A DNA stretch of 64,000 nucleotides from an uncultured Acidobacteriota bacterium (GTDB lineage: Bacteria; Acidobacteriota; UBA6911): contig CAWHCF010000034.1 of the NCBI GenBank assembly GCA_963827655.1, forward strand, positions 64,001-128,000, read 5' to 3'. The notes under the pieces were generated by a model that searched no databases, was not told the DNA's origin, and saw only the letters and a list, made by a program, of their open reading frames with translations. Positions 34,860 through 53,668 of the stretch are shown one piece after another. Made by a program: the position numbers and the translations under genes. The first letter of the stretch is position 1. Each line of letters opens with the position of its first letter.

Positions 34860-35134
34860 GTGGATAAGAGAAACAAGCGTCATTTTCAGCTCGAGTCGGG
34901 GCAACTCAGGTTCTGAGAACGGGCTTTATGTTAACTTTGCGCGATGTTCCTCGGTCCTGGATGAGTCCGACTCTGCGGATTATACGCCAGGTGCATTGGA
35001 AGCGCGAAGAACCTAGCCGTGAAATCGTGAGATTTTGCGGAAGAATCCTACCGCGAGGGAGTGCCCTAATGCCCCATTAATACCTCCAGTCGGCTTCCTC
35101 TACCGCAGGAGAGATTGGCGGAGCGCGGGAAGGC
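34860..35134 (-). mobile_element. Repeat unit copy 1 (275 bp): putative oriIS end of an IS91/ISCR-like rolling-circle element
   Basis: Identical to copies 2 and 3; contiguous with the transposase remnant at 35386-35630. Confidence 0.75.
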
Positions 35135-35385
35135 AGGCCAGCACATGGCTGCGCTTGCGGATTCAGCGCCGACTATGTATAAGCATTTCTATGTCGAGAG
35201 GGCTGGAGAAGCAAGAGAAATTCCGGCGCGGGCGAGGGCTGGTAGGTCTGTTCGGAGCAAGTTGACGGCTCCAGGTCAAGGGGAAAGGGGTTGGTTGTCA
35301 TTCACGGACACTGGGAAGGCTACGGCCGTCTGGTGGTGACCGGATTCAGGAGAGACGGGTATCCACAAGGTGTGCCGTGGTCCGG

Positions 35386-35630
35386 TTAGGTGGGCGAAGG
35401 GCTTGCCGCCGCGGGCGGAGCCCGGGGCTCAAACGGATCGCGCGCCTTGCAGGCTTCGCTCGCTAGGTGCCTCAGGATCCGGTCGACGACACGGGGTTCC
35501 GTGATGAAGGAGACGATTTTCATCTGCGCTCCGCAGGCACACAGAAGAGGGTCCACCTCGAAGATCTTACGGAGCAAGCGCGCCGAGGAAGCCCTCCGCG
35601 CGCGGTTGGAGTCGATTTCCCCCTCATCTT
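35386..35630 (-). pseudogene. C-terminal remnant of an IS91/ISCR-family (Y2 HUH) transposase
   Basis: SARLLRKIFEVDPLLCACGAQMKIVSFITEPRVVDRILRHL...RAPP matches the WARLL..(V/I)FE.DPL.C..CG..M.I..FI......IL.HL...RAPP tail typical of this family. Confidence 0.8.
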
Positions 35631-35905
35631 CCTGCTGCTGCACCCCGGACGGGCGGCAGCTCTGGTCGTTGAGCCCCGCTATCGTGACGCGCGACCGGTT
35701 TCCGAAAGCGAAGTCCGCGCACGTATCGGATCTTGAGATCCCGAGGCATTCGTCTCCCCTTGTTCAGCGGAATCCCGGCTTGGAGTGAGGGGGGCACGCC
35801 ATTCCTTGAGGGAACTGCGAAGATGGATGGCAGGCGGATCGTGAACATGTCCCCCCGAACAGTTGTTCGGACCCGAAACGCGCTCCAGCGGGAGGGCGGC
35901 GTCGT

Positions 35906-36874
35906 ATGAACTCCGTCGGAATCGCCGGCCGGCTTATCAGCGTGGTTATTCCAGTCCACAACGAAAACGATTCGTTGCAGGAATTGGCCGGGGAGCTGCT
36001 TGCCGTTGCAGCCTCGCACTCTCTTCCCCTGGAGATCGTTTTCGTCGATGACGGCAGCACGGATGGCTCCTGGAAAACGATCTGCGCGCTTGCCGCTAAG
36101 GATTCCCGTATGCGGGGGATCCGCTTCCGACGCAACTTCGGCAAAGCGGCGGCGCTGGCGGCGGGATTCCAGGACGCGCGCGGACAGGTTGTGTTCCAGA
36201 TGGATGCGGACTTGCAGGACGATCCCGCGGAACTGCCCCGCTTTCTCTCCCGCCTGCAATCGGGCGTCGACGTCGTCAACGGCTGGAAGCGAACCCGTCA
36301 CGATCCCTGGCATAGGGTCTGGTCGAGCCGGGCGTTTAACTGGATGGTCAGCCGTTTGACCGGCCTCCGGTTGCACGATCACAACTGCGGATTCAAGTGT
36401 TTCCGGGCGGACGTGGTGAAGGAACTGAAGCTTTACGGCGAGATGCATCGGTTCATTCCCGTGATCGGATTCGCGCGCGGCTACTGCGTGGAAGAGATGG
36501 AAGTGCGGCACCGGCCGCGGCGCCACGGGCGCTCCAACTACGATTTCCGCAGGATTCCCAAGGGTTTTCTTGACTTGATGACCGTGGCGTTCCTAACGGT
36601 CTTCGGACGGCGCCCCCTTCACCTCCTGGGAGGTGTCGGGTTGGTTCCCTTCTGCCTGGGAGGTCTCGGATTGACCTACCTGGCCGTACAATGGCTTCTG
36701 GCGCGGCTTGGGCTGGAAGGGTACGGTCCCATCGGCCAGCGGCCGCTGCTGCTGTATTCGGTTGCGGGGGTCCTGTCTGGCCTGCATCTCCTTTCGATCG
36801 GCTTTCTCGCCGAGTTGCTTCTCGCTCTCAACATCCGCCACGTGGACAGCTTCAGCGTTCTCGATCGGACGTAG
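35906..36874 (+). CDS. GT2 polyprenyl-phosphate glycosyltransferase (ArnC/GtrB-like)
   Basis: VIPVHNE, VDDGSTD, RNFGKAAAL, DADLQDDP, GEMHRFIP; two C-terminal TM helices. Confidence 0.9.
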   Translation: MNSVGIAGRLISVVIPVHNENDSLQELAGELLAVAASHSLPLEIVFVDDGSTDGSWKTICALAAKDSRMRGIRFRRNFGKAAALAAGFQDARGQVVFQMDADLQDDPAELPRFLSRLQSGVDVVNGWKRTRHDPWHRVWSSRAFNWMVSRLTGLRLHDHNCGFKCFRADVVKELKLYGEMHRFIPVIGFARGYCVEEMEVRHRPRRHGRSNYDFRRIPKGFLDLMTVAFLTVFGRRPLHLLGGVGLVPFCLGGLGLTYLAVQWLLARLGLEGYGPIGQRPLLLYSVAGVLSGLHLLSIGFLAELLLALNIRHVDSFSVLDRT

Positions 36875-36936
36875 GCTCAGGCTGCAGATTCCGGACATCC
36901 CTGCGCTAGCCGTTGGCGGTGCCTGGTGGACGGGCT

Positions 36937-38430
36937 TCATCGGGACGCCGGCTGAGCGAAGGCCAGGGCGGCCTGCTTTCCTTCCGTATAGAAGTACGTC
37001 GCCGTTGCGACGCGTGGCGTGACCCGGGTGAGGTCCACCTCGAAGTTTTTCGTCACGAACTCCGCCAGAGCAGGAGGCATCGCCCGGCTCCGCGATCCCT
37101 CCCAGACGACGAGGAGGGGCCGGCCCCCGGATGGAATCCCGGCCGTAAGCAGAGGCACGATCAGGTCGCTGTCGCGGAAGTAAAGCCGCAGATTCGCTCC
37201 CAGAGCCTTGTTCTCGGCGACAATCGTCCCCCCGGTGAAGCCCGCCTTCCTGATTTCCGCGGCCATGTCTGCGGCCGGATAGTGAAGCGGAAGAATAACG
37301 CCGTTTGCACCGGCCAGCGGAACGCGCGCGTGCAGAATGGTCAAGGCGAGAATCGACGAGAGGCCCGAAACAATCGCGAATCTTTTGAATGTGGGCGCGG
37401 TGACTGGTCCCTTGACGAGGCTCAGGAAATAGATGGGGACGAAAAAAAGAACCGGCTCGAGCCAACGATCCTTGAACCGGGTAGCGCCGGTGGCGACCAC
37501 AACGAGGAAGCATAATATCAGAACGACCGCCAGAGTCCTTCCCAGGATCGTCGAGAGCAGTCGAGTTTCCGGATCGGAGCCGAAAGGATCGGGCCTTTTG
37601 AAGAGCCAGTAATAACACAGGAGGAGCGGTCCCAGGAAACTCAAGAGTGCGATGAGCAAGTGCCCGATGCCCGTGGAGGCGATCGTCAGGAAGCCTTGAG
37701 AAACATCCGGATCGAGCTTTCTCACCACCTCGGAAACGTAGCCGCGATGTTGCCGCAACCAGAATCCGTGCGGGACGACGAGGATGAGGAAGCTGAAAAG
37801 GGCGGGAATCACTCTGCCGTCGAGCAACCGTTTGCGCCCTAGTGGAGTCGAAAGGCATCCAAGTCCCAGGGCCGCCGCAAATGCGGCGAAATTGTAATAG
37901 CTGAGGATGCCGAGCGCCGCTGAAAGACCGAGACCGCAGTAGTTCGCGGTCGAGGGGGTTTTGAGCAACCTAAGGGTGCACAGGAGCGTCAGCCCTGCCA
38001 TGAGCGTCGCCAGCACACTGTGTGCCTGGCTGCGCAGGGCTTCCCAGACAAAGGTCGGAATGAGGAAGAGCGAGAGCGAGGCGATGAGCGAGATGTTTTC
38101 GTCCTTGAGCACATGCTTTGCGCACCCGTACAGCGAGAGGTACACGCCGAACAGGATCAGATTTTTCAGGAGGGCGAGGGAAAAAACACTAACGCCGAAA
38201 AGCCGGAAACAGGCACTTTGCAGCCAGGGGTACAGCGGTGGCGGGGTCTTGTAGCCCCACGCCAGCTCCTGAGACACGAGCGCCATTTCCGACTCGTCAA
38301 ATCCCAGGCTGGGGGACACCGCGACGCGAAGCAGCATATTCGTCATAAAGTAGAGAGCCAGCAGCGAGAAGACGACGAGTTTGAGCCTCGCGCCGTTTGC
38401 CGCCGCGGGCCATGCCCGGGAATACTCCAT
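36937..38430 (-). CDS. ArnT/GT39-like membrane glycosyltransferase
   Basis: FDESE...WGYKTPPPLYPWLQ and many TM helices; the ORF extension upstream of 38430 lies in unrelated fragments. Confidence 0.8.
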   Translation of the reverse strand: MEYSRAWPAAANGARLKLVVFSLLALYFMTNMLLRVAVSPSLGFDESEMALVSQELAWGYKTPPPLYPWLQSACFRLFGVSVFSLALLKNLILFGVYLSLYGCAKHVLKDENISLIASLSLFLIPTFVWEALRSQAHSVLATLMAGLTLLCTLRLLKTPSTANYCGLGLSAALGILSYYNFAAFAAALGLGCLSTPLGRKRLLDGRVIPALFSFLILVVPHGFWLRQHRGYVSEVVRKLDPDVSQGFLTIASTGIGHLLIALLSFLGPLLLCYYWLFKRPDPFGSDPETRLLSTILGRTLAVVLILCFLVVVATGATRFKDRWLEPVLFFVPIYFLSLVKGPVTAPTFKRFAIVSGLSSILALTILHARVPLAGANGVILPLHYPAADMAAEIRKAGFTGGTIVAENKALGANLRLYFRDSDLIVPLLTAGIPSGGRPLLVVWEGSRSRAMPPALAEFVTKNFEVDLTRVTPRVATATYFYTEGKQAALAFAQPASR

Positions 38431-38569
38431 TGCGCGGACGAGACTATCACACGCGCAGATATCCTTGCCAATTCTGAAGCGCTTCTCGGTCCATGGCGTC
38501 CCCCCGGCGGGCACCTTGCGGTCCCGGCAGTGTCTGAGTCGAACTCGGCGGCGGGAAAAAACAGCCTCA

Positions 38570-39270
38570 TCAAGCCTTGGCGAGGGGCTGACGGCTGCGC
38601 CGCAGGAAATCGCGCTCGGTCGTGTTCTCGGTGCGGGCGATCGCCGCCTCGTAGGCCAGCACCGCCTCGGCGTTGCGGCCGAGGCGTCGAAGCAGGTCGG
38701 CGCGGGTGGCGTGGAACAGGTAGTAGTCACGGAGGTCGAGGCCGTCGACGACGGCGAGCGCCGCTTCCGGTCCGTTCACCTCAGCCACCGCCACGGCGCG
38801 GTTCAGGGCCACGGCCGGGCTCGGGGCCAGCAACAGGAGATGGTCGTATAGCTGCCACGGTCGCGCCGTGGCCGTGCTGGTCCGCCACTTCGAACCGGAG
38901 GTCATGGGCCTGCTTGCGCTCATGCTGCTCGTCGAGTCGCGCCGGGCCACGCGCACGACCCCGGACGGCGACCTCGTACTGCTGGCGGATCAGGACCGCG
39001 GCCGCTGGGATCGAGGCCTCATTGCCGAAGGCCAGGCCATCGTCCGGCAATGCCTCCGGCGCAACCAGCCCGGCCCGTACCAGATCCAGGCGGCGATCAA
39101 CGCTGTCCACAGCGACGCTCCGGCCGCGGCAGCTACAGACTGGCGGCAGATCCTGGCGGCTCCGGGGCGGAGAAGTCCTGACGACCGACGGCCCGTTCGC
39201 CGAGGGCAAAGTGCACATCGGCGGATTCTTGATCATCAAAGCGCCTGATCTCGACGCCGCGCTCGAGTGG
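38570..39270. pseudogene. Scrambled fragments of an ECF42-type sigma factor and a DGPF/YciI gene
   Basis: 38570-38854 (-) QLYDHLL...HATRADLLRRLG; 38856-38891 (+) HGRAVAVLVRHF; 38892-39155 (+) EPEVMGLLALMLL...DWRQIL; 39157-39270 (+) TDGPFAE...DLDAALEW. Confidence 0.8.
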
Positions 39271-39532
39271 GTGGATAAGAGAAACAAGCGTCATTTTCAG
39301 CTCGAGTCGGGGCAACTCAGGTTCTGAGAACGGGCTTTATGTTAACTTTGCGCGATGTTCCTCGGTCCTGGATGAGTCCGACTCTGCGGATTATACGCCA
39401 GGTGCATTGGAAGCGCGAAGAACCTAGCCGTGAAATCGTGAGATTTTGCGGAAGAATCCTACCGCGAGGGAGTGCCCTAATGCCCCATTAATACCTCCAG
39501 TCGGCTTCCTCTACCGCAGGAGAGATTGGCGG
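39271..39532 (-). mobile_element. Repeat unit copy 2 (262 bp)
   Basis: Identical to 34860-35121; preceded by a second GTGG. Confidence 0.8.
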
Positions 39533-40673
39533 CTCAAGATCTACACGACGCTCGATCCGACGATCCAAGCAGCGGCAGGAAGCCATCGTCACGGAGCTCG
39601 ACCGTCTGCAAAACGGGCGCCCCGCGCTCGAAGGCGCCGTGATCGTCACGAATCCGCACAACGCCGAAGTGCGCGCGCTGGTCGGCAGCCGCCGAATCGG
39701 CTACGACGGCTTCAACCGCGCGCTCGACGCGAAGCGGCAAGTGGGCTCGCTCATCAAACCCGTCGTCTATCTCGCGGCGCTCGAGTCGGGCCGGCATTCG
39801 CTCGCGACGCAGATCGAAGATGCGCCGATCACGATATCGCTCGACAACGGCACGGCCTGGACGCCCGCGAACTTCACGGAGGAAATGCACGGCTCGGTGA
39901 CCACCGTGCGCGCGCTTGCGGAGTCGTTCAATCTCGCAACCGTGCATCTCGGCTTGGATGTCGGACTTTCTCCGGTTGCGGACGTGCTCGGCCGACTCGG
40001 TCTCGATCGAACGCCCTCGCTGTACCCATCACTCCTCTTGGGCGCCGTCGACATGACGCCGCTCGAGGTCACGCAGATCTACAACACGCTCGCGAACGGC
40101 GGATTCCGCGTGCCCTTGCGCACCGTGCGCAGGGTCGTCGGCGGCGACGGGCAGACGTTGCAGCGCTACGCGCTCAAGATCGAGCAAGTCAGCGATCCCG
40201 TGTCCGTCTATGCGTTGAATCAGGGATTGGTCCAAGTCATGCAGCGCGGCACAGGCAAGGCGGCACGCGCACAGCTTCCCGCATCGCTAAGAACCGCGGG
40301 CAAGACCGGGACATCCGACGGGCTGCGCGACAGTTGGTTTGCAGGTTTCAGCGACGATCATTTGGTCGTCACATGGGTCGGCAACGATGCGAACGAGGTC
40401 GTCGGTCTCACGGGAGGCACGGGGGCATCGCAAATCTGGGCGCGCACGTTCGCGGAGCTCGAAGCAAGCCCTTATAGCACTCCTCCGCCCGCAGGCGCCG
40501 AAGTGGTCTGGATCGACTACAACACCGGTTTGACGACGGACGAACGGTGTCCCGACGCCGTGCTCGTCGCGATGACAGCCCCCGATGTCCCGCCGAAAGC
40601 AGTCGCATGCGGCAGCAATAGCACACGCGTCGGCTCGAGGATTCGCTCGTGGTTCCAGAACGCATTGCACTAA
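39533..40673 (+). pseudogene. mrcB: 5'-truncated class A PBP1B (transpeptidase domain only)
   Basis: LKIYTTLDP, FNRALDAKRQVGSLIKP, SFNLATV, AGKTGTSDGLRDSWFAG; begins exactly at the repeat junction. Confidence 0.85.
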
Positions 40674-42152: not shown

Positions 42153-45100
42153 CTATAGGCTGCGGGCGTTGTCCTGCGCTCGCCGGTCGAGCATCAAGCC
42201 GTAGGGATCGACCGCGACTCGCCCCGGCCGCGCGGGCACGCGCACGACGACGCGTTGCGGGCCGGACGTAAGCCAGTGCTTCTCGAGGTAGATCGGACCG
42301 GCGATCGCTGCTGCGTCTGTCGCGAACACCGCGACGTCGAAAGGTGCCCGCAACGGCACTTCCGTCTCGACGCCGGCGCCGTCGACGTCGAGCTGCCGCG
42401 CAGCGATCTCGATCGTGACCTCGTAGCCGTCGCCCGCGGCGCGCTCTTCCGCGCCCGTGACGGCAACGTCGTACAACGTGATCCGCTCGAACCAGTCCGT
42501 GATCAACGCCTGATGCTCTTCACCGGCCACAGCACGCAGCTCCGCGACGAGCTCGCGCGTCGTCGGATTCGGCGGCGGCCGATTGCCGTACTTCTCGATG
42601 AAGCGCTTGAGCGCGAGGTTCACGCGATCCGCGCCGAGCACATCGCGTAGCGCGTACATCGCGTGCACGCCTTTGGTCCCGGCGATCGCCGTCTCGCTGC
42701 GCATGATCGGCAACTCCTCGATGCGCTGGCGGCTGCGCGTGTCGAGGTACTGGCCTCCCAACGCTGCGACGTCGGGATAAACGGCCGCTCTGCCCTCGAC
42801 GTGCTCGCTCAACATGAGCGCCGAGTAGCTCGAGAGCGTCTCGTTCAGCACGAACATGCCTTGCAGGACTTGGCTGCGGACCTGCCCGCCCCACCACATG
42901 TGCCCGAGCTCGTGCGCGGTCACGAAATCGATTTCGCGGTCGCCGTACTTCGAGAAGAAGCCCGCGCCCTCGTTGAACGCGATGATGCCCAAGCGCGCAT
43001 CTACGACCGTGCTGTAGCGCGGATACTCGAAGATGCGGAACGAGCCGAACACATACGGCCCGAACTCCGCAACGTAGTAATCCAAGCCGCGCTTCACCGT
43101 GTTCATGATCGTCGGGACGGCCCCCGCATGCTTCGGGTCGTAAAAGATCTCGATCGGAATGCCGCGCGCCGAATCGCGCGCCACGTCGTAGCGCGCGGAC
43201 GCGAACGCCAGGCCGACGGGGAACGGGGGCCGATACTCGAAATAGCGCCGCCCGCCTTCGCTCCACTCGCGTTGCAGTGCGCCGGCCGCGACGGCGGTTT
43301 GGTCCGCCGACGTGCTGAGCACGACGCGAACGTCCGCGGCCTCGAGCCGCATACCGGCAGCGCGGCGCGCCTCCGGATCGTCGAGATCCGGCATACGCCC
43401 CGCCGGGGGCAAACCCTCCCGCCCGCGCGCCGCGGGGTCCGTGAGCTCGCGCTCCGGGTCGTAGCGCATGTCCGGCATGACGGTGGGGCCGTCGAGGTAG
43501 GCGCCGTTGGCGGCCACGGCGCCGTTTGCCATCAAGTTCGCAAAGCCGTCGTTGCGCCACGAGAAGTCCCACGTCCCCGTGATGCTCGCTCCGACCGCCA
43601 GCGGCTCGGCGAACCGGTAGACGCGCCCGCCCGAGCCCTGCTCGACGATCTCGGCATCACCGAGCTCGAGGGCGTTGACGGTGAGCGCGGGGTTCAGCGT
43701 CACAAGCACTTCTTCGATCGGCCGGTCGGAGTTGTTGACGAGCTGTGCCGTGCCGCGCGACTCGACGCGCCGCTCTTCCGGGAAGAAGTCGATCGCCATA
43801 TCGACGGCGGTGGGGAACGGCGCCGGCAGACCCGCGTAGCGGCGGAACTTCCTCTCGTACTCGGCCGCGCGCGCCTCGAGGTCGCCGCTGTCCAGGTACT
43901 CGTTCAAGACGTGCGTGTTGTAGAAGATCCAAGCGCCAAGCCCGACGAACGCGACCGCGGCCGCTGCGGCAACCGCCACCGTTGCGCGCGTCACGCGTGA
44001 ACGTGCGTCGGCAACGCGATGCGCGAGCCGGTCGTAGTAGCCGCGCGGCGCGACCAAGTACGCGGCGACTGTCGCAAGCACGAGGAATGCGGACCAATAC
44101 GCCATCAGCGAGGCGTGCCGCACGGCGAAGTGACCGAAGCCGTTCATGTCCGAGTGCGGAACGCTCGGCAGCCGGAACGTGTACAGCAGATCTTGGAACC
44201 CGAACGGCAGCAGCGACAGCGACGCCACGAACGCCGCGAGGAACGCGAGCGTGCCGAGCCAGCGGTTCGGGAAGAGCAGATGGAGGAGCACGGCAGGCAC
44301 GACGAGCAGGTAGTGATTGAAGCCGTACCAGATCAGCCCCTTGAGATAGAGGCCGAGCTCGAAGCGCGTGTAGCCGCTCGCCGCTTGCAGCACGATGAAC
44401 GTGAGAATTCCGGCGCCGAGCAGCAGCGTGAGCGCGACCCACAGCGCGCCGATCTGGCTCAAGACAAAGGTCGCGCTCGAGACGGGCGATGCGTCCGCGA
44501 TCTCCGCGACGCGCGCCTCGCGCGCGCGGTGCGCGAGCAGGCCCGCGTAGTAGGCGATGAAGAGCAGCAGCTGCATTGCGAGGCCGGGATCGAGAAAACC
44601 GATCATGAGACTCGTGAGAGGCTCGCGGGGCCCGATCATGAGAAGCTCCGCGGGCGGCTGAAAGTCGAAATGCTGCGCGCAGCCGAGCACCACGATCGCC
44701 AGGACGAGGAAGAACGGCGGACTGCGCAAGGTCGCGCGCAGATCCATCTTGAGCTGCGACTTAAGCTGCGCGAGCGTGGCGCCTTGACCGAAATGCGGCG
44801 CGACTCGGGCGCCGGACAACGCCGGCGCATGCGTTCCAGCGGACGTGCGAAGGCGCCATAGCCGCGGTGCCGTGCGCTGCACGACGAATCGGTACCGCAC
44901 GAGCGTCGCGACCATCGCCGCGGCCGCGACGCCGAGCCACAACGCTCGGTTCACGAACAGCACGCCGCCCGGCAGGTCGCTCGCGAGCTCGGCGCCCGTC
45001 CAATAGCGCGTGACGTCGACGATCGCGAGCAGACCGAACGGGTCCACCAGCGGGAGCCAGCCGCCGCCGTCCGGATCCAGGTACCCCTGCGCGACGAGCG

Positions 45101-45683
45101 GTATGAGCGGCAGCACGATGGCTACACAAAACGCCGCGGCGATCGACCGCGCAGCGGCCGCGGCGCTGAACGCGAGTGCCGCGACGATGATCGTGTTCGG
45201 CACGGCCACGGCGCCGACCACGAACCACCATGGCGCCGCGGCGAACGCGCCGAGTCGTGCCGGATCGACGCCCGGAGCCGCAAGGGCCACGAGACCGCCG
45301 AGCACGCCCGCGAGCGACGCGAGCAGCGCGAACGCGAGCCCGCCCGCGAACCGGCCGAGCACGTAGCTCGGCTCGCGTATCGGCCGCACGAAGAAGAGCT
45401 CGGCCATCAAGCGCTCGTAGTCGCGCGTGATGGCGGCGGCGACGATCGCGACGGCCGGGAAGATCGCGAACAGGCTCAAGACGAGCTCGTTCTGGATGAT
45501 CGCGACTGCGGCGTTCAGCGGAATCGTCGCCGCGTCCGCATTCGCGCCGATGCCGATGTCGATGCCGAGCTTGCGCGCCGTGAGGAAGTGAATCAGAAAG
45601 AACAGCACAGCCACCGCGATGTACAGCGGCGACTTGACCTGGAACCGGCATTCAAACCGGAAGATCTCGAGAAATGCACGCAT
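42153..45683 (-). CDS. ABC-2-type permease fused to an M1-family (gluzincin) peptidase domain
   Basis: About 12-14 TM helices in the N-terminal half, YSDMNG-like HSDMNGFG, VTAHELGHMWWG...NETL zinc motif. Confidence 0.85.
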   Translation of the reverse strand: MRAFLEIFRFECRFQVKSPLYIAVAVLFFLIHFLTARKLGIDIGIGANADAATIPLNAAVAIIQNELVLSLFAIFPAVAIVAAAITRDYERLMAELFFVRPIREPSYVLGRFAGGLAFALLASLAGVLGGLVALAAPGVDPARLGAFAAAPWWFVVGAVAVPNTIIVAALAFSAAAAARSIAAAFCVAIVLPLIPLVAQGYLDPDGGGWLPLVDPFGLLAIVDVTRYWTGAELASDLPGGVLFVNRALWLGVAAAAMVATLVRYRFVVQRTAPRLWRLRTSAGTHAPALSGARVAPHFGQGATLAQLKSQLKMDLRATLRSPPFFLVLAIVVLGCAQHFDFQPPAELLMIGPREPLTSLMIGFLDPGLAMQLLLFIAYYAGLLAHRAREARVAEIADASPVSSATFVLSQIGALWVALTLLLGAGILTFIVLQAASGYTRFELGLYLKGLIWYGFNHYLLVVPAVLLHLLFPNRWLGTLAFLAAFVASLSLLPFGFQDLLYTFRLPSVPHSDMNGFGHFAVRHASLMAYWSAFLVLATVAAYLVAPRGYYDRLAHRVADARSRVTRATVAVAAAAAVAFVGLGAWIFYNTHVLNEYLDSGDLEARAAEYERKFRRYAGLPAPFPTAVDMAIDFFPEERRVESRGTAQLVNNSDRPIEEVLVTLNPALTVNALELGDAEIVEQGSGGRVYRFAEPLAVGASITGTWDFSWRNDGFANLMANGAVAANGAYLDGPTVMPDMRYDPERELTDPAARGREGLPPAGRMPDLDDPEARRAAGMRLEAADVRVVLSTSADQTAVAAGALQREWSEGGRRYFEYRPPFPVGLAFASARYDVARDSARGIPIEIFYDPKHAGAVPTIMNTVKRGLDYYVAEFGPYVFGSFRIFEYPRYSTVVDARLGIIAFNEGAGFFSKYGDREIDFVTAHELGHMWWGGQVRSQVLQGMFVLNETLSSYSALMLSEHVEGRAAVYPDVAALGGQYLDTRSRQRIEELPIMRSETAIAGTKGVHAMYALRDVLGADRVNLALKRFIEKYGNRPPPNPTTRELVAELRAVAGEEHQALITDWFERITLYDVAVTGAEERAAGDGYEVTIEIAARQLDVDGAGVETEVPLRAPFDVAVFATDAAAIAGPIYLEKHWLTSGPQRVVVRVPARPGRVAVDPYGLMLDRRAQDNARSL

Positions 45684-45689
45684 CGTCAG

Positions 45690-46577
45690 TTACTCCGCAG
45701 TCGTGTCGATGCCGTGCTCGAGCAGCGTCGCGAAGTAGACGTCTTCGAGCGTCGGTGCAGCGCCCTGCATGCCCGCAGGAGCCGAGTCCGCGAGCACGCG
45801 CGCTTCCGTGCGCCCAGCCACGATGCGTGTCGAAATGACTTTCAGCGTCGCACGCAAGCGCTCCGCTTCGGCCTTGTCGACGGCCGTCGACCAGAGCCTC
45901 CCGTCGAGCTCGGCCGTGAGCGCGCGCGGCTCGCCGACGCGCAAGATCTTGCCGGCCGCCATGATCGCGACGCGCGGGCACAGCGCCGAGACGTCGTCGA
46001 CGATGTGTGTCGACAGGATCACGACGACGTCCTCGCCGACCTCGGACAACAAATTCTGGAAGCGCCGCCGCTCGACGGGGTCGAGGCCGGCCGTCGGCTC
46101 GTCGACGATGAGCAGGCTCGGGTTGCCAATCAGCGCCTGCGCGACGCCGAAGCGCTGGCGCATGCCGCCCGAGAACTTGTCGATGCTGCGTTTACGTACG
46201 TCCCAGAGGTTCGTGCGCACGAGCGCGTCGCGGACCACCGCTTTGCGCTCCGCGCCGTGAATGCCCTTGAGCGCCGCGAAGTGCCCGAGCATCACTTCCG
46301 GCGACGTGCGCGGATACGCGCCGAATTCCTGCGGCAGGTAGCCCAAGCGCTTGCGCAGCTCCATCTTCGCGCCGAGCACGTCGAACCCGTCGAACGTGAT
46401 GGCGCCGCTGTCGGGATCTTGCAGCGTCGCGATCGTGCGCATCAGCGTCGACTTGCCCGCGCCATTCGGGCCGAGCAGGCCGAACATGCCTTTCGGTATG
46501 TCGAGGCTCACGGCGTCGAGCGCACGCACGCCGCCCGAATAGGTTTTGGACAGGTTTGAAATGCTCAGCATGGGCAA
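45690..46577 (-). CDS. ABC transporter ATP-binding protein
   Basis: GPNGAGKST, FSGGMRQR, IVDEPTAGLDP, ILSTH. Confidence 0.95.
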   Translation of the reverse strand: MPMLSISNLSKTYSGGVRALDAVSLDIPKGMFGLLGPNGAGKSTLMRTIATLQDPDSGAITFDGFDVLGAKMELRKRLGYLPQEFGAYPRTSPEVMLGHFAALKGIHGAERKAVVRDALVRTNLWDVRKRSIDKFSGGMRQRFGVAQALIGNPSLLIVDEPTAGLDPVERRRFQNLLSEVGEDVVVILSTHIVDDVSALCPRVAIMAAGKILRVGEPRALTAELDGRLWSTAVDKAEAERLRATLKVISTRIVAGRTEARVLADSAPAGMQGAAPTLEDVYFATLLEHGIDTTAE

Positions 46578-46587
46578 CCTCTTGTTG

Positions 46588-47669
46588 TCATTCGACGGCC
46601 CAATCCGCGAGACGTAGTTGCGGCACGATCAGGCGGGACGTGAAGTGCTCGCGCGGCCGGAAGGGCACGTACCGCACGAGCCAGTCTTCGCGCCGCGCGT
46701 CGTCGGGCAACGGCACGTCGATCTCGAAGCTCTCGAACAGCCGAAAGCCGAGCTGGAAGCGGGAGTAGTCCGGCTGGCAAATCAAGCGCTCGCCGACGCG
46801 CGCGTCGCCCGCGCGCTTCTCGGCACTCACGCTGTAGCAGGACGGTCGATGCAGCGTGAGGCAGCGCATCCGCACGCCGTCGCGGTTGCGCAGCGGTTCC
46901 GTGGTGCACCGATCGTTGCTCGCAAAGCGCGCCTCGCCGCCGTCCGCAGGCAGGGAGAGCTCGCCGTCCATCTCGAGGGCCGTGAGCGAGTAATCGACCT
47001 CGAGCCGCAGCGCTTCGTCGCGATGCCGGTCGAATACATCCGACGGGACGAAGAGAATCTGCACCTCTTCCGTCTCCGCGTGCACTTCGAGCGCGTCGCC
47101 CGTGCCGCGATACACGACGCGGCCGCCGGCGTCGACGAGGCGCGCCTCGACCCGGTCGGCCCAGAGCACATCGCCGTCATGACTCCGCGTGATCTTGAGC
47201 GGCAGTGCGAGCGTCGTGCCTTGCGTCTGCCGGGACAACCACACCCCGAGCTCGCCGTTGCTAGCCTGGCCGGCGAGACTGGCGCGCGCCCTGAAGATTT
47301 CGGCCTGCGCGGGGCTCAGCATGTCCGGCGCAGTGACGTGCCCGCGCGCGAGGTCGAGCTCGAGCGCGACGTCCGCCGGGACGGCCGGTGTACCGGTCGA
47401 TCGTTGTTGCAGCCCGTGCGCAAAACCCCATGGCAGCTGCCCGACCGCTGCGTAGGCAACCGTCGCGACGAGGACGGCCGCACGCGCCGAGCGCGTAGCA
47501 CCGCGCCTGAAGTACTGCAGGCCGATCACTGCGAGCGCGCCTATTACCACGACGGAGATTCGGCCGAGCATCGTGATCCACGCGATGCCCGTGCCGCACG
47601 TGGCGCACGGAATTCCCGCAAGCCCGAAGAACAAGAGCGCGGCAGCTTCCGCCACGATAGAAACGATGA
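46588..47669 (-). pseudogene. 5'-truncated membrane-anchored hypothetical protein
   Basis: The frame is open up to and through the repeat junction with no native start; begins within TM segments. Confidence 0.6.
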
Positions 47670-47944
47670 GTGGATAAGAGAAACAAGCGTCATTTTCAGC
47701 TCGAGTCGGGGCAACTCAGGTTCTGAGAACGGGCTTTATGTTAACTTTGCGCGATGTTCCTCGGTCCTGGATGAGTCCGACTCTGCGGATTATACGCCAG
47801 GTGCATTGGAAGCGCGAAGAACCTAGCCGTGAAATCGTGAGATTTTGCGGAAGAATCCTACCGCGAGGGAGTGCCCTAATGCCCCATTAATACCTCCAGT
47901 CGGCTTCCTCTACCGCAGGAGAGATTGGCGGAGCGCGGGAAGGC
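47670..47944 (-). mobile_element. Repeat unit copy 3 (275 bp)
   Basis: Identical to 34860-35134; followed by a 15-bp tandem duplication of its end. Confidence 0.8.
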
Positions 47945-48096
47945 CGGAGCGCGGGAAGGGCCTTTCTGTAGACGTAGTGGCTGTAGTGAACCAGCGGTAT
48001 CAGATGTTCCTACGATCAATACACCGTCGTCGAACACGTGACCAGGCTGTCGCCCAATCATTGAGTACCTGTTCCATACCAGAAGTTGCCATGACA

Positions 48097-49026
48097 TTAC
48101 CGGATTTGTTGTTTTGCTAAAAAGCTCTGGATCAATTGGGCGATGTGGTCGTCTTCTTCTTCAAGCGCAAAGTGTCCGGTGTCGAGCAGGTGAAACTCAA
48201 TATTCTTCAAATCGCGCTTGTACGGTTCCGCGCCTTCCGCAGGAAAAATGTGGTCGTTTTTGCCCCACACAATCAGCGTTGGCGGCTGGTGTTTGCGGAA
48301 ATACGCCTGCCACTTCGGGTACAGCGCTGGGTTCGAGCCGTAATCAAGAAACAGCTTGAGTTGGATCTCCTGATTACCGGGACGGTCAAGCAGGGCTTGG
48401 TCAAGTGTCCATGTGTCGGGTGAAATGCGGTTCGGATTGCGCGTGCCGTGCGTGTACTGCCACTTCGTCGCCTCGACTTTCAAGAAATCGCGCAGTTTAT
48501 TGGCGTTTTCCTCGGTCGAATTTTCCCAGTAGTTTTTGAGCGGATTCCAAAAACCGCGCAAACCTTCCTCATAAGCGTTGCCATTTTGCACAATCAACGC
48601 CTGTACCCGTTCGGGATATTTCACCGCGAGGCGATAACCGACAGGTGCGCCGTAGTCCTGTACATAGAGGCTATATTTTTTCAGTCCCTTGGCGATGGTA
48701 AATTTTTCAATGACGTCCGCCAAATGGTCGAACGTGTAGCTAAACTCGCCCACACTCGGCGCGGAACTGTAACCGAAACCCGGATAGTCCGGCGTGACGA
48801 CGTGATACTTGTCCGCCAAAAGCGGAATCAGATTGCGAAACATGTGCGACGAAGTTGGAAAGCCATGCAGCAAAAGAATTGTCGGCTTGTTCGGATCGCC
48901 CGCTTCGCGGTAAAAAATCTCCAGATTGTCAATTTTCAACGTGTTGTAAATCACCTGGTGTTGGTTTGACAACGCAGGCACAGTTTGTGCTCTGGCGGCT
49001 AAACTGTCGTTATTTTTGTCTTTCAT
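48097..49026 (-). CDS. Alpha/beta hydrolase (epoxide hydrolase/dehalogenase-like)
   Basis: [35 protein letters not shown]. Confidence 0.92.
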
Positions 49027-49719: not shown

Positions 49720-49803
49720 TCAAGCTTAACTTGTTAAATCAATGACACGCAGCAACATAACGAAGAGAGGTATCAGCCGGTCAACTTGAAGAATCGTTAT
49801 CTC

Positions 49804-49838
49804 ACGAAATCTCGTTGCCTATGATCACGAACACTCGT
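49804..49838. promoter_or_regulatory. Two palindromic ACGA-N4-TCGT sites, putative enhancer (UAS)
   Basis: ACGAaatcTCGT (49804) and ACGAacacTCGT (49827), about 100 bp upstream of the sigma54 promoter. Confidence 0.55.
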
Positions 49839-49850
49839 TAAGCTTGTCGC

Positions 49851-50915
49851 ATGACACCTGCCACAGATCATTTCTACGAAGAAGAAGGAGACGAAAGAGA
49901 GCCGGTCGAGGGGTTGATCGGCGAGAGCGCGGCCTGGCGCAAGGTCCTGCAGCAGATCGAGCTTGTCGCTTCCTCCAACGCGACCGTTTTAATTACGGGT
50001 GAATCGGGAACGGGCAAGGAAGTGGTGGCAAAGGCTATTCATGCCAAAGGTGCGCGCCGCCAACGTCCGCTTGTCAAAGTCAACTGTGCGGCAATCGCGC
50101 CAGACCTTTTCGAGTCGGAATTCTTCGGGCACGTAAAGGGCGCGTTTACCGGAGCGCACAAAGACCGTGTTGGCAGATTCGGACTTGCCGACGGCGGGAC
50201 GATCTTTCTCGACGAAGTCGGCGAAATCCCGCTCGCCCTGCAGGGCAAACTGCTGCGCGTTTTGCAGGAAGGACAGTATGAGCGCGTCGGCGAAGACCGC
50301 ACGCGAAAGGTCGATGTGCGCGTGATCGGGGCGACGAATCACGACCTGGGAAAGGAAGTCGAAGCGGGCAGATTCAGGCAGGATCTATTTTACAGGCTGA
50401 CCGTTTTTCCGATTCATGTGGCGCCTCTTCGCGAGCGGTTGGAGGATGTGCCGCTGCTGGCTGAACATTTCATGCGAAAGCTGAATTGGCGCGACCGAAG
50501 TAACCTGCCAGTGCGTTTAAGCGAGGAGAACGTGAGCGCTCTGCTTGATTATCACTATCCAGGGAACGTCCGCGAGCTCCAAAATATCATCGAGCGAGCC
50601 GGCATTCTGACGCATTGTTTCCTGTATAACCTAAGTGTGCAGCAGATTCTCGACGCGATGTTGCTCTCTGAACAGAGGAAACAGCTTGACTTGGCTGTCA
50701 AAGAACCTTTGATCGCCAATGGTCGTTCGCAGAAAAAAATCATGACATATGCGGAAATGAAAGACTTGGAACGTCAAAACTTGATCGGCGCTTTACAGGC
50801 TACGAATTACAAAATTTATGGCGCTGGCGGGGCCGCCGAGCTTCTCGGCGTTAAGCCGACGACGCTCGCCTCGCGCATCAAGGCTTTGCAAATCCCGCTT
50901 CGCCCGAGCACATAA
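49851..50915 (+). CDS. Sigma54-dependent enhancer-binding protein lacking an N-terminal sensor domain
   Basis: [33 protein letters not shown]-terminal HTH GAAELLG. Confidence 0.93.
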
Positions 50916-51099
50916 ACCGGGGTGGCATTGAGCGATTAACACCACTGGCGGCAGAACCCCGCCTTGCACTCGACTCGCCTCCGCTGGCGCCCGGCGAGCG
51001 GGTGGTGGATAAGCCTATCTCAGGCGGAACGAGCGCACAGCGCGGCGTTGGGAAAAAACAGAGGGATTGCCGGTTTACCGGCACGCCCACGCGAAGCGA

Positions 51100-52363
51100 A
51101 GGCTTCTATCTCCGCCAGCTAAATCCGGAAATTATCTCGCTCCATCCTTATCCCCCAGCGGGCGTTACCTCGCTTTTGTGCAAAGAACCGATTTCGTGGT
51201 GAGTGAAATCTATCTCAGCACTCTGCAGCCCGATTTCACACCGGAGGGCGAACCGAAAAGGATCACCTACGAGAACCGGCTGACGACCAGTCCTGTAATG
51301 GGCTGTTGATGGGCGTGAAATCATGTTCCTGTCCGGCGAGCTTGGTGCGGACGCCGCCCTCTATAGCGTATCAATCTCAGGAGTTGGGAAGCCCAACGTG
51401 TTGCCGTTTCTCCGAGAAGGTGCTGCCCTCCTTGCGCTGGCTCGACCTGCCGGGGGTCCGTTCCCGCCCGGGCCGCGACGCCTCGCCTACACGCGCGCGA
51501 TCAAGGATCACAACATATGGCGCACCGACGCATACCGCGCGGACGGTCGGTTCAGTGCGCCACGCCCTTTCATCCCCTCCACGCGCATCGATTTCAATCC
51601 GCAACTGTCACCGGATGGTACGAGAATCGCCTTCGAATCGAGCCGCTCGGGCAGCACGGAGATCTGGGTTGCCAATAGCGACGGTTCAAATCCCATGCAA
51701 GTGACCTATGTCGGTGGTCCGCTGACCTCAGCCGCCCGCTGGTGTCCGGATAGCCAGTGCATCGTCTTTAACTCACGTGCAGGAGGGCAGTCCGACATCT
51801 ACGTCGTCAGCGCCAACGGGGGCAAGCCGCGGCGGTTGACGGATGAGCCCAGTATGGAGGACATGCCAAGCTTTTCGAGAGACGGGCATTGGTTCTATTT
51901 CCAATCAAACCGCAGCGGGAGCAACCAGGTTTGGAAAATGCCTGTGCAGGGAGGCAAGCTAATCCAGGTAACAAACAAAGGAGGGCTCCTTGCAGTGGAG
52001 TCACCCGACCGTAAGTTTGTCTACTATTCGAAGGGTAATGCGCTCGGACCCGCCTCCCTCTGGAGAGTTCCGTTGTCCGGAGCTGGCCCCGGCGGCGATG
52101 AGACTCAAGTTTTGGAATCTCTTGCTGACTGGAGCACATTCTCGGTCGTTCGTGATGGAATTTACTTCATCCCGTACGCAGCGGGTAACCTGAGAACCTC
52201 CATTCAGTTCTTTGGCTTCGCTGACAAGAAGACCAGGCAGGTAACCGCCATTGACAAGCCGGTTGCTGTGGGTCTTGCGGTTTCGCCGAATAGTCGCACC
52301 ATTTTGTACAGTCAGGTTGACTACGAAACTAACGACCTGATGCTCGTTGAGAATTTGCGGTAG
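51100..52363 (+). pseudogene. 5'-truncated, frameshifted PD40/TolB-like beta-propeller (C-terminus of a kinase- or wHTH-TolB-type protein)
   Basis: SPSGRYLAF (ORF 51067) continues into ORF 51323 after a frameshift near 51298; SPDGTRIAFESSRSG; ends DLMLVENLR. Confidence 0.75.
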
Positions 52364-52546
52364 TCCGGCCGCGCCCCGCTAGCATGGTGGCGGCACAGCG
52401 TTGGCAAAGTGTTGCGGCGGCCAGAATGTCTTTCAGTTGATACTGGCCGCTTCGTCTCTTTTCGATTTCTGCGTGTCGACTTGCTCCGATGACAATGGTT
52501 GCCAGACGGCCCACGTGATAGAATGAGCCATTCTAAAGGAGTCCTG

Positions 52547-52933
52547 ATGCCCCCTACGCTCGCGAACGGCAAGGTGTGCTACATCGAGATCCCCGCTGAC
52601 GACATCCAGCGTTCGGCCGACTTCTATGCCAGGGTTTTCGGCTGGCGGATCAGGCAGCGCGGCGACGGTCACACCGCATTCGACGACACGACCGGCGAAG
52701 TGAGCGGCACGTGGGTGGTCGGCAGGCCGGCGTCGTCGGAACCGGGCCTGCTCGTCTACATCATGGTCGACAGCGTGGCCGCGACCATAGACGCCGTAAT
52801 TAGCCACGGAGGCGAACTCGTGCAACCGATTGGCGCGGATGCGCCCGAGGTGACCGCCAGGTTCCTCGACCCCGCTGGAAACGTGATCGGCCTCTACCAG
52901 GAACCCGGCCGTTTGCCCTCTTCCGAGAAGTAA
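52547..52933 (+). CDS. VOC/glyoxalase family protein
   Basis: CYIEIPADD...FYARVFGW...FLDPAGNVIGLYQ; AAGGAG RBS. Confidence 0.92.
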   Translation: MPPTLANGKVCYIEIPADDIQRSADFYARVFGWRIRQRGDGHTAFDDTTGEVSGTWVVGRPASSEPGLLVYIMVDSVAATIDAVISHGGELVQPIGADAPEVTARFLDPAGNVIGLYQEPGRLPSSEK

Positions 52934-53366
52934 TACAATCCCCTCGTCGCGCGGCGCGGCCATGTCTTTCTCCATGTGCGCCGGGTAAAACCGGCGAGGG
53001 TCGCGCTAGCAGCGCCTCACGGGTATAGAGCGACAGGTTCGGCATCGCGTTCGGCATGAAGCACTAGAGGAGGTAAGACGCGAATGCCAGAACCGCGCCG
53101 CGGGGCCTATTCGATGACCGCCCTCCGCTACGAGTATTCCATGGCCCCTGCCGGCTTCAACCAAACGACGAGAATGCGGTTGAGAATGCGATGGAAACGC
53201 AGCCGGGGCTGACGTCCTCGCGACCGAACACGACCTGAAAGCTCTTGCGGATTGAGTCGTAGGCCGTGCGCGACAGCAGGCCCAGCAACCTTCGGACTCC
53301 ACGCGCAGATCCCTAGCCCGGAAACGACTTGGCTGCAAGCGCGTCGGGCCAGAACTGCTCGAAACG

Positions 53367-53572
53367 TCATTTCGTTATCGGCGCCGCGGCAATGTTCTTG
53401 TTAACGATGTCAATCGTCTGCTGGTACTCCTTCTTTGGACTGAACTCAAGAACCTCGGTGTCCTCCTCATAGACGGGCACGTGTCCAGGTTCGAGGTAAT
53501 AGACGTCTCCAGTTTTCAACACAACATCGCCATCCGCGCTCTTGATGCGCACTCGGCCCCTGAATACATAAC
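53367..53572 (-). pseudogene. 5'-truncated cupin-domain protein
   Basis: YVFRGRVRIK...GDVYYLEPGHVP...LEFSP; N-terminal half missing, repeat copy 4 about 25 bp upstream. Confidence 0.65.
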
Positions 53573-53596
53573 GGTACTGTCGAACCGTCTCCGTCA

Positions 53597-53668
53597 GTGG
53601 ATAAGAGAAACAAGCGTCATTTCAGCTCGAGTCGGGGCAACTCAGGTTCTGAGAACGGGCTTTATGTT
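53597..53668 (-). mobile_element. Repeat unit copy 4 (72 bp, one T deleted)
   Basis: Same left terminus GTGGATAAGAGAAACAAGCG; diverges after TTTATGTT. Confidence 0.78.

What the first reader, a model, noticed from the sequence alone, without database searches (positions are those of the whole stretch)
34860..53668. Stacked array of identical rolling-circle-type ends, each carrying a different captured DNA block (candidate gene-capture system)
Seen: four same-orientation copies start at exactly the same sequence GTGGATAAGAGAAACAAGCG (34860, 39271, 47670, 53597; spacings 4411, 8399 and 5927 bp). Copies 1-3 look identical over 262 bp. Right ends vary (copy 1 runs on into a transposase remnant; 262, 275, 72 bp), with no terminal inverted repeat and no consistent target duplication. 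The blocks between copies are unrelated and differ visibly in composition. Known: IS91/ISCR elements use an HUH Y2 transposase, start at a fixed oriIS downstream of the gene, insert at a short target without duplication and can mobilise flanking DNA by one-ended transposition. Inference: these are non-autonomous ori-only units, mobilised in trans, that pick up arbitrary kb-scale DNA and accumulate head-to-tail at GTGG targets. That would be a Helitron-like capture array in a bacterium.
Basis: partly seen in the sequence, partly recalled or inferred. Interest (0 to 1): 0.92.

Follow-up and report, generated by a model that had tools for sequence, protein, structure and literature searches.

The report
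Truncated ISCR-like transposon ends in array
The four repeats are the origin-side ends of broken rolling-circle insertion sequences related to the ISCR/IS91 elements known from resistance plasmids, lying at rearrangement breakpoints in a soil bacterium; a gene-capture role is possible but not shown.

Summary
Four same-strand copies share one exact left end, and their right ends differ: 281, 262, 278 and 72 nt.

The unit is the oriIS-side end of an ISCR-like (IS91-superfamily) insertion sequence. It holds about 217 nt of 3' non-coding DNA plus the last ~21 codons of the transposase gene. An intact 516-aa relative in the same genome is 41% identical to the ISCR1 and ISCR2 transposases. Its end aligns from the terminal base with the ISCR1 and ISCR2 ends that I delimited from plasmids. 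There is no terminal inverted repeat and no target duplication.

A fifth end, of a sister subfamily, lies at 35173. All nine genomic copies of the unit lack a complete transposase gene.

Unit 2 separates two unrelated broken genes. Across the genome, neighbouring ends point the same way in 15 of 17 pairs.

Related metagenome contigs show both patterns: the same left junction with different truncations, and the same unit plus DNA to its right with a different left flank. Deletion and recombination between direct repeats explain both.

No block in this window is shown to have moved with its unit. GTGG looks like element sequence, not a target.

Verdict: a new member of a known kind. The capture array is unproven.

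The parts
34860..35140 (+). Unit 1: origin-side end of the 'fam1' ISCR-like element, 281 nt kept. Positions 1 to about 217 are non-coding and the rest is the antisense of the last ~21 transposase codons.
   Evidence: The transposase tail ...LGLPSRAPPISP... reads through the equivalent stretch in contig C8.
35173..35701 (+). Origin-side end of a second ISCR-like subfamily ('B'), about 528 nt kept, in the same orientation as the units.
   Evidence: 89.6% identical over 558 aligned positions to C26:120593-121147. Three further partial copies begin at this same point: C49 and C8, and C36 only as an internal piece (positions ~52-100). The terminus ATGTATAAG resembles the units' GTGGATAAG.
35386..35643 (-). 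C-terminal 85 codons of the subfamily-B transposase gene, reading towards the end at 35173.
   Evidence: 95% identical to residues 159-243 of the C26 ORF, whose residues 52-141 match Pfam Y2_Tnp. No significant direct match to the C52 transposase.
39271..39532 (+). Unit 2, 262 nt kept.
39160..39270 (+). Fragment of a YCII-family gene, cut at its 3' side by the sharp end of unit 2.
   Evidence: Pfam YCII profile positions 40-77 of 95; the match stops at the unit's edge.
39533..40673 (+). 5'-truncated penicillin-binding-protein gene that starts at the inner break of unit 2.
   Evidence: The frame is open up to the junction. The transpeptidase domain (profile 1-266 of 299) starts 34 codons in, and no upstream domain or start codon is present. 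A 2-nt difference at 39576 in a contig of run X2 joins the two frames.
47670..47947 (+). Unit 3, 278 nt kept. It is followed at 47948-47962 by a 15-nt repeat of the unit's own last bases.
53597..53668 (+). Unit 4, 72 nt kept.
53824..53891 (+). 68-nt stretch shared with C36:277802-277868, where it directly follows a fragment of the subfamily-B end.
   Evidence: Its meaning is unknown.

Best explanation
The repeats are origin-side (oriIS) end remnants of ISCR-like insertion sequences of the IS91 superfamily. These are rolling-circle elements whose HUH transposase gene is read towards a fixed end. That end has no inverted repeat and makes no target duplication. Each unit has lost the rest of the transposase gene and the terminating end, so it is non-autonomous. 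The window holds five such ends: four of one subfamily and one of a sister subfamily. All point the same way, and they lie in a patchwork of intact and broken genes downstream of a tRNA-Gln gene. How the array arose is inferred, not shown. My reading is repeated insertion in one orientation, possibly partly one-ended. This was followed by loss of the terminator-side part of each element together with neighbouring DNA, and by recombination between the direct repeats. As a result the ends now mark rearrangement breakpoints. My odds: identity as ISCR-like origin ends about 0.9; this route to the array about 0.5-0.6. The first ~72-80 nt that all copies keep correspond to the part that suffices for IS91 transposition. 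The ends could therefore still be nicked in trans by intact relatives in the genome, but no event of that kind is demonstrated here.
For: Layout: in contig C8 the unit runs on into a transposase reading frame that ends at unit position ~218. That frame is 63% identical over 120 aa to the C-terminus of the intact 516-aa transposase on C52. The C52 gene stops 221 nt before an end...CCACCTATCC, of the same kind. Family: C52 has Pfam Zn_Tnp_IS91 (65 bits) and Y2_Tnp (95 bits). Its best NCBIfam model is ISCR clade Ia, E 2e-116 over profile 5-485 of 509. It is 41% identical to ISCR1 and ISCR2, with the HFH and LCRY..RPAV motifs conserved, and 38-42% identical to at least 5000 plasmid records. Ends: I delimited ISCR1 (...CTTCCTATACCC, 232 nt after the stop) and ISCR2 (...CTTCCTATACGT, 235 nt after the stop) from three plasmids each. 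Reverse-complemented, both align without gaps from the terminal base with three of my ends: fam1, fam2 and C52; the B end was misplaced by the aligner. No inverted repeat and no duplication. Decay: 9 of 9 fam1 copies in the genome lack a complete transposase gene. Kept lengths are 33, 72, 113, ~250, 262, 270, 278 and 281 nt, and ~1 kb in the C8 copy. In metagenome contigs they are 59, 69, 270, 392, 392 and 408. Loss after insertion is seen directly: at one shared left junction a contig has a clean 146-bp deletion across the unit/flank border (L064 against C9). Two other shared left junctions carry different truncations: 171 against 74 nt, and 175 against 211 nt. Breakpoints: unit 2 lies between a 3'-cut YCII gene and a 5'-cut penicillin-binding-protein gene. 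Direction: 15 of 17 neighbouring end pairs within 10 kb point the same way (my count from the 40 hits). Bias: among relatives' homologues, 35 places keep only the origin-proximal part and 17 keep only the other part. There are also 20 full, 22 internal and 15 excluded at contig starts, from 123 of the 150 listed rows; 164 rows were not listed.
Against: No intact copy of this exact subfamily was found, so its terminating end is unknown and 'truncated' is judged against a 1-kb remnant. NCBIfam scores are below both curated cut-offs: ISCR clade Ia 389 against 925, and IS91 93 against 125. The flank next to the end shows no tetranucleotide like IS91's GTTC/CTTG. The subterminal hairpins expected of oriIS are not supported: fold z-scores are +0.6 and +1.6, and there is little covariation. 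Three copies within 13 kb that are 99.6-100% identical yet each broken at a different point is awkward for slow independent decay. It fits copies that are born truncated, or gene conversion. The bias towards origin-proximal remnants is moderate (p 0.018, and related genomes are not independent), and random deletion does not explain it. Long-range order of the array could not be checked with reads.
Confidence: 0.62

Rival explanations
1. Origin-only units are mobilised in trans by one-ended rolling-circle transposition, carry the DNA on their inner side as cargo, and pile up head to tail because each newcomer lands at the outer edge of a resident origin end.
For: Two pairs of sequences share a unit with one truncation point plus DNA to its right, but have different left flanks that break exactly at the terminal base. 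In the first pair, L065 against C40, the shared part is unit 1-270 plus 1655 bp holding an ECF sigma-factor gene. It is 98.9% identical, while the L065 left flank matches another contig (C39) at 93% and cuts a kinase gene six codons in; the right flanks differ too. In the second pair, L061 against L066, the shared part is unit 1-392 plus at least 690 bp, 98.6% identical. L066 also has a further broken copy 740 bp upstream in the same orientation. Same-direction arrays recur on contigs C9, C31, C40, C45 and C52. Intact relatives exist in the genome. IS91 and IS1294 miss their terminator in 1-14% of events, and 82 bp of the origin end suffice (PMC13181058, passages read).
Against: No block of this window recurs anywhere in the genome, and no two genomic copies share DNA beyond the unit. 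Every copy has its own truncation point, which one-ended transposition does not create. The DNA in front of each unit shows no shared terminator-like sequence or tetranucleotide. Block 1 holds a further broken gene, a sigma-factor fragment at 38868, that is not at a unit. Both supporting pairs can arise by recombination between two same-direction units, which swaps left flanks exactly at the repeat.
Confidence: 0.2
2. The copies are born truncated. Rolling-circle copying starts at the origin end of an active master and aborts, or switches template, after tens to hundreds of bases, much as LINE copies are 5'-truncated.
For: All 9 genomic copies are broken although five (units 1-4 and C27) are 99-100% identical. 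Kept lengths are skewed to short values, with clusters at 59-92 and 247-285 nt in two subfamilies. There is a junction micro-duplication at unit 3 and an inverted piece at C40:69972-70046. Origin-proximal remnants exceed the others 35 to 17 in relatives.
Against: A simple aborted insertion should leave contiguous flanks, and unit 2's flanks are unrelated broken genes. In four metagenome copies only one flank continues the matching stretch of this genome. No consistent motif or microhomology was seen at the break points. Post-insertion deletion is directly seen once.
Confidence: 0.13
3. Assembly artefact: unrelated contigs, possibly from different organisms in a metagenome bin, were joined through a shared 260-280-bp repeat.
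For: The genome looks like a metagenome bin (90% complete, 2.4% contamination, 53 contigs). Blocks differ in composition. No public contig spans a whole unit.
Against: Each unit-flank junction has its own break point, which is local sequence and not produced by mis-joining. Short public contigs reach two junctions from outside: 29 nt into unit 1 and 30 nt into unit 2, just under the tool's 31-nt criterion for bridging. Contigs of up to 569 kb and many split reading frames suggest a long-read assembly, which would span 280 bp; this is my inference. The same kind of array occurs on five other contigs.
Confidence: 0.04
4. An ordinary miniature inverted-repeat element (MITE) of fixed length.
For: Short, non-coding for most of its length, and multi-copy.
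Against: No inverted repeat and no target duplication. The length is not fixed: 33 to 408 nt with one common end. Transposase codons lie inside it.
Confidence: 0.01

Closest known systems
ISCR elements (ISCR1; ISCR2 = ISVsa3) of resistance plasmids and genomic islands
   Same: The transposase is 41% identical, with the same domains and motifs. The origin end lies 220-235 nt after the stop codon, and the terminal ~18-30 bases are alignable. The outer boundary is exact, with unrelated DNA beyond it in different contexts. Several same-direction copies can occur per replicon; for example three places in one plasmid record (H22). Broken copies are common.
   Different: The host is a soil bacterium, unnamed here, and no resistance genes are nearby. 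Scores are far below NCBI's ISCR clade Ia cut-off. In my sample of 60 plasmid rows, broken ISCR2 copies keep either side about equally: 8 origin side, 10 terminator side, 14 internal, 28 full. Those rows are dominated by a few widespread structures. Here all copies of the unit are origin-side remnants.
IS91, IS801, IS1294 (IS91 family proper)
   Same: HUH rolling-circle transposase with the zinc-binding and Y2_Tnp domains. Distinct origin and terminator ends, no target duplication, and one-ended transposition that carries adjacent DNA (PMC13181058, passages read).
   Different: The IS91 equivalog model scores 93 bits against a cut-off of 125. No GTTC/CTTG-type flank was seen. No orf121-like gene was looked for.
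Helitrons (eukaryotic rolling-circle transposons)
   Same: One fixed end, no inverted repeats, no duplication, and a reputation for gene-fragment capture (recalled, not from a call).
   Different: Helitron transposases carry a fused helicase (recalled). The C52 protein shows only the two IS91-type domains. It is a bacterial element with ISCR-type ends.

Membership tests
IS91 superfamily (including ISCR) | HUH rolling-circle transposase with an N-terminal zinc-binding domain and a Y2_Tnp domain | tested here: met
   The C52 intact copy has PF14319 at 65 bits (cut-off 26.3) and PF04986 at 95 bits (cut-off 20.9), and the HFH motif is conserved. The unit itself holds only the last ~21 codons. The link is the C8 copy, where the unit continues into a frame 63% identical to C52 over 120 aa.
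IS91 superfamily (including ISCR) | Origin end downstream of the transposase gene, with the gene read towards it | tested here: met
   The stop codon lies 217-221 nt from the end in C8 and C52, and about 211 nt in the window's subfamily-B remnant. The distance is 232 nt in ISCR1 and 235 nt in ISCR2.
IS91 superfamily (including ISCR) | No terminal inverted repeats and no target-site duplication | tested here: met
   0 of 4 copies score above shuffles for inverted ends, and 13 of 14 copies have no flank duplication.
IS91 superfamily (including ISCR) | Specific tetranucleotide next to the origin end (GTTC, CTTG or similar) | tested here: not met
   The 14 flanks show no consensus. The exact first base of the element is uncertain by 1-2 nt, so a weak preference cannot be excluded.
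IS91 superfamily (including ISCR) | Subterminal palindromes at the origin end | tested here: inconclusive
   A 5-bp stem (CTCAG..CTGAG) is present. Fold energies are no better than shuffles, and only 2 of 9 consensus pairs covary.
IS91 superfamily (including ISCR) | A distinct terminator end (terIS) at the other side | not testable with these tools
   No intact copy of this subfamily was found. The single intact C52 copy cannot be delimited on its upstream side.
ISCR clade Ia (NCBIfam NF052416) | Score above the curated cut-off of the model | tested here: not met
   389 bits against 925. It is the best-scoring model, with E 2e-116 over profile positions 5-485 of 509. This is a relative of the clade, not a member of it.
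ISCR group | Conserved terminal sequence of the origin end | tested here: met
   An ungapped alignment from the terminal base puts fam1, fam2 and C52 in register with ISCR1 and ISCR2. By my count on that alignment, 13 of the first 18 bases are identical between fam2 and ISCR2.
MITE | Fixed length, terminal inverted repeats, target duplication | tested here: not met
Helitron | Rep domain fused to a helicase | tested here: not met
   Pfam finds no helicase domain in the 516-aa protein. That this feature defines Helitrons is recalled.
Active one-ended capture element | The same unit plus cargo found at two sites, with an intact empty site at one of them | tested here: inconclusive
   Two pairs share unit plus right-hand DNA with different left flanks. 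In neither pair could an empty site be shown: the L065 tail matches neither contig.

The most novel reading that the evidence does not exclude
Origin-only remnants of ISCR-like elements remain live launch sites. Transposase supplied in trans starts rolling-circle transfer at their fixed end, carries whatever lies on the inner side (for example the 1.65-kb sigma-factor block shared by L065 and C40), and lands next to resident ends. Same-direction arrays would then be natural records of stepwise gene capture in a soil bacterium. ISCR mobility, long inferred from resistance islands, would be seen here in a non-clinical setting.
Probability: 0.2. Interest if true: 0.7.

Novelty: new member of a known kind. 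Interest (0 to 1): 0.35.

Why it matters
ISCR elements are blamed for assembling resistance regions. The evidence for how they move is mostly comparative, and one abstract seen in the listing (PMC9376610) says the mobility of a CR2-sul2 unit had not been demonstrated before that study. This bacterial family carries many relatives: 39 of 50 family genomes searched have a match, with 20 full-length places among those tallied. The window's genome shows several subfamilies, many origin-side remnants and same-direction arrays. That makes it a natural system, free of clinical selection, for testing three questions. Do broken origin ends still fire? Does termination fail? Do ends stack? As it stands, the finding is an annotation result: a new ISCR-like family and its debris. 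It is not a new kind of system.

Tried and rejected
Structured RNA: Rfam at E up to 1 over 30-58 kb gave only one weak unrelated hit at 38661-38718, and nothing on the units.

tRNA or att-site repeat: the only tRNA in the window is tRNA-Gln at 28661-28734. I did not compare its 3' end with the unit in a dedicated call.

Replication-strand bias as the cause of the common orientation: local GC skew is weak (absolute value 0.04 or less) and unrelated to unit direction. The window and C40 have positive skew but opposite directions, and C9 has negative skew with the + direction. This is inconclusive rather than negative.

Outward promoter in the unit, as in ISCR1: no sigma-70-like site in 47500-48100. 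This host's promoters may differ.

Hairpins: not significant.

Synteny in relatives, to tell native from imported blocks: the window's genome is the only member of its genus held. The ABC-permease/M1-peptidase gene of block 2 has homologues in only 3 of 40 relatives, at 31-37% identity. I gave this route up.

Genome-collection scan with the end pattern: one locus.

Public reads: the best runs hold 0.26-0.35 of the sampled words. All are short contigs, and none spans a unit. One contig of X3 follows the left flank to 34859 and then differs for 72 nt, but its letters were not shown. Parts without cover are not evidence either way.

Window ORFs 35390-35788 (+), 35467-35736 (+), 35035-35265 and 35115-35339 gave no Pfam match. 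The ORF 35386-35643 (-) has no significant direct match to the C52 transposase; its identity rests.

Paper look-up: PMC1489542 is not held. What I say of the ISCR review literature, and of Helitrons, is recalled. Supplementary tables of PMC13181058 on target sites were not seen and could bear on the tetranucleotide test.

I did not use structure prediction, complex prediction, the protein atlas or the large protein searches.

The count '63 of 137 genomes with a match' includes G034, which is flagged unpublished. No other claim rests on it.

Full report
OBSERVATION. Copies 1-3 are 99.6-100% identical over 262-278 nt. Copy 4 shares 72 nt. All four begin at the same base, and their right ends differ. 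The window is G000:C34:64001-128000, in an 8.18-Mb genome of 53 contigs. That genome holds five more copies of the same unit: C40 (three, all on one strand), C27 and C8. In register, the kept lengths are 33, 72, 113, about 250, 262, 270, 278 and 281 nt. The C8 copy lacks its first 27 nt but runs on for about 1 kb. This is therefore not a fixed-length element. No inverted repeat and no target duplication is present.

WHAT THE UNIT IS. In C8 the unit continues into a reading frame on the opposite strand that ends ...LGLPSRAPPISPAVEEADWRY, with its stop at unit position ~218. That frame is 63% identical over 120 aa to the C-terminus of an intact 516-aa protein on contig C52. The C52 protein has the zinc-binding and Y2_Tnp domains of IS91-type transposases. 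Its best NCBIfam model is 'ISCR element clade Ia' (389 bits, E 2e-116), far under that model's cut-off of 925; the IS91 model scores 93 against 125. It is 41% identical to the ISCR1 and ISCR2 (ISVsa3) transposases, with the HFH and LCRY..RPAV motifs in place. The C52 gene stops 221 nt before a sharp end...CCACCTATCC.

To avoid relying on memory, I delimited the origin ends of ISCR1 and ISCR2 myself. In each case I took the point where three plasmids with different neighbours diverge. The ends are ...CTTCCTATACCC, 232 nt after the stop, and ...CTTCCTATACGT, 235 nt after the stop. Reverse-complemented, these align without gaps from the terminal base with the fam1 unit, a second subfamily (fam2) and the C52 end. 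The unit is thus the oriIS-side end of an ISCR-like element: about 217 nt of non-coding DNA plus the antisense of the last ~21 transposase codons.

The first ~77 nt are conserved at 74-84% among subfamilies in this genome. For IS91, the last 82 bp of this end suffice for transposition (PMC13181058, passages read).

A FIFTH END. The 'transposase remnant' after copy 1 belongs to another subfamily (B). Copies on C26 and C49, a second locus on C8, and an internal piece on C36 show that this element has its own sharp end at about 35173, starting ATGTATAAG. The minus-strand ORF 35386-35643 is 95% identical to the C-terminal 85 residues of a C26 ORF that carries Y2_Tnp. Copy 1 breaks off 32 nt before this end. 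Subfamily B shows the same pattern of one fixed end with variable kept lengths: about 49, 83, 528 and 555 nt.

FLANKS. Unit 2 separates two unrelated broken genes. On its left, a YCII-family frame matches profile positions 40-77 of 95 and stops at the unit's edge. On its right, a penicillin-binding-protein frame is open from the first base after the unit (LKIYTTLD...), and the transpeptidase domain starts 34 codons in. There is no start codon and no upstream domain. Unit 2 is therefore not a simple insertion into contiguous DNA. Units 1, 3 and 4 lie between apparently whole genes. Other broken genes in the region are not at units: a sigma-factor fragment at 38868 and an IS5-type fragment at 32771. 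The region as a whole is a patchwork.

OTHER COPIES AND STRAINS. A pattern scan of metagenome contigs returned 22 loci, of which 17 are copies: 6 fam1 and 11 fam2. One further fam2 copy came from the genome collection. Kept lengths again vary. For fam1 they are 59, 69, 270, 392, 392 and 408. For fam2 they are 61, 67, 74, 85, 163, 171, 175 and 252, two copies of at least 284, and two cut by contig ends. Comparison with this genome gives two kinds of difference.

(a) Same left junction, different inner side. L064 against C9 has a clean 146-bp deletion across the unit/flank border. L067 against L074 keep 171 and 74 nt. L059 against C50 keep 175 and 211 nt.

(b) Same unit and right-hand DNA, different left flank, broken exactly at the terminal base. 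L065 against C40 share unit 1-270 plus 1655 bp with a sigma-factor gene at 98.9% identity. The L065 left flank matches C39 at 93%. L061 against L066 share unit 1-392 plus at least 690 bp.

Pattern (a) shows loss after insertion. Pattern (b) is what one-ended transposition of unit plus cargo would give. It is also what recombination between two same-direction units gives. In neither pair could I show an empty site.

GENOME-WIDE PATTERNS. A profile of the first 80 nt finds 40 hits at E up to 1. Of 17 neighbouring pairs within 10 kb, 15 point the same way (my count; one-sided binomial about 0.001, though pairs within one array are not independent). Arrays occur on C9 (4 ends), C31 (2), C34 (5), C40 (3), C45 (4 within 15 kb) and C52 (2). 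GC skew does not explain the direction.

The C52-type element has two partial copies, of 846 and 713 nt, and both keep the origin end. Across 136 other genomes of the class, homologues of the C52 protein occur in 62. Within the window's family they occur in 39 of 50 genomes (the class count includes one unpublished genome, G034). From the 123 listed rows of other genomes with at least 46% identity, I merged pieces into 109 places: 20 full, 35 origin-proximal only, 17 terminator-proximal only, 22 internal, and 15 excluded at contig starts. A further 164 rows were not listed. The bias is real but moderate (p 0.018, and related genomes are not independent).

In clinical plasmids, a 60-row sample of ISCR2 matches shows broken copies of both kinds in similar numbers.

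MECHANISM. Shown: the family, the layout, the fixed outer end, the variable inner breaks, the non-contiguous flanks at unit 2, the common direction, and one post-insertion deletion.

Inferred: the elements insert in one direction in a permissive region. Their terminator-side part is then lost together with neighbouring DNA, and direct repeats recombine. Because rolling-circle events start at the origin end, aborted or template-switched events would also leave origin-side pieces. The micro-duplication at unit 3 and the inverted piece on C40 fit copying errors. That three nearly identical copies within 13 kb are each broken differently keeps the 'born truncated' and 'live origin-only unit' readings open. 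I could not separate these with the data at hand.

WHAT IS NOT SUPPORTED. GTGG is the start of the element, not a target. No window block recurs elsewhere in the genome. No shared terminator-like sequence precedes the units. Public reads could not test long-range order. Contig sizes and frequent split frames suggest a long-read assembly that would span such repeats, but that is my inference.

VERDICT. This is a new ISCR-like (IS91-superfamily) element family with its origin-side debris. It is a member of a known kind, and its behaviour resembles what is described for ISCR elements in resistance regions. The capture-array idea stays a minority reading at about 0.2.

Noticed in passing
window 14072-14275, 15237-15421, 16389-16632: A very abundant short repeat of about 150-245 nt, at 80-97% identity, with three copies in 2.6 kb here and well over 80 copies across most contigs. 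It looks like a MITE-like or REP-like family unrelated to the finding.
   Followed up: no
window 28934-29553: A ~620-nt repeat starting 200 nt after tRNA-Gln (28661-28734). Partial copies lie on C2, C49, C6, C28, C38, C41 and C7, and several begin at the same point (28949). Its ORFs have no Pfam match. It contains ATCATTTTCAGCGCTCGA, which resembles positions 20-36 of the unit.
   Followed up: partly
window 32771-33235 (-): Fragment of an IS5/IS1182-type transposase (DUF772 domain only), another broken mobile element in the same region.
   Followed up: no
window 39576: A contig of run X2 has two extra bases (CG) here. They join the two reading frames of the truncated penicillin-binding-protein gene, so the frameshift in the window may be a strain difference or an assembly error. 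Split frames elsewhere (the C8 transposase remnant; the C47 paralogue of the ABC/M1 gene) suggest indel errors in the assembly.
   Followed up: partly
C8:5183-8188, C52:173748-174399, L065 left flank (matches C39 near 29181): At three loci the outer side of an origin end faces the start of a Ser/Thr protein kinase gene that reads away from it. In L065 the end cuts the gene six codons in. Kinase genes are very numerous in this genome, so this may be chance.
   Followed up: no
window 42153-47655 (-): A three-gene operon (unknown protein, ABC ATPase, ABC-2 permease fused to an M1 peptidase domain) with GC3 of 0.84-0.88. Its homologues occur in only 3 of 40 relatives. Its first gene starts 14 nt from the outer edge of unit 3, so any promoter would lie inside the unit.
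   Followed up: partly
window 33393-33626 and 33852-34085: An internal 234-nt direct repeat (75% identity) within one ORF that carries two SnoaL/DUF4440-like domains.
   Followed up: no
C27:38892-40548: A near-full-length ISCR-like copy of yet another subfamily: 54% identical to C52 over residues 56-512, with one in-frame TAG. Its origin end faces the 113-nt fam1 remnant at C27:36443 in the opposite direction. This is one of the two discordant neighbour pairs.
   Followed up: no
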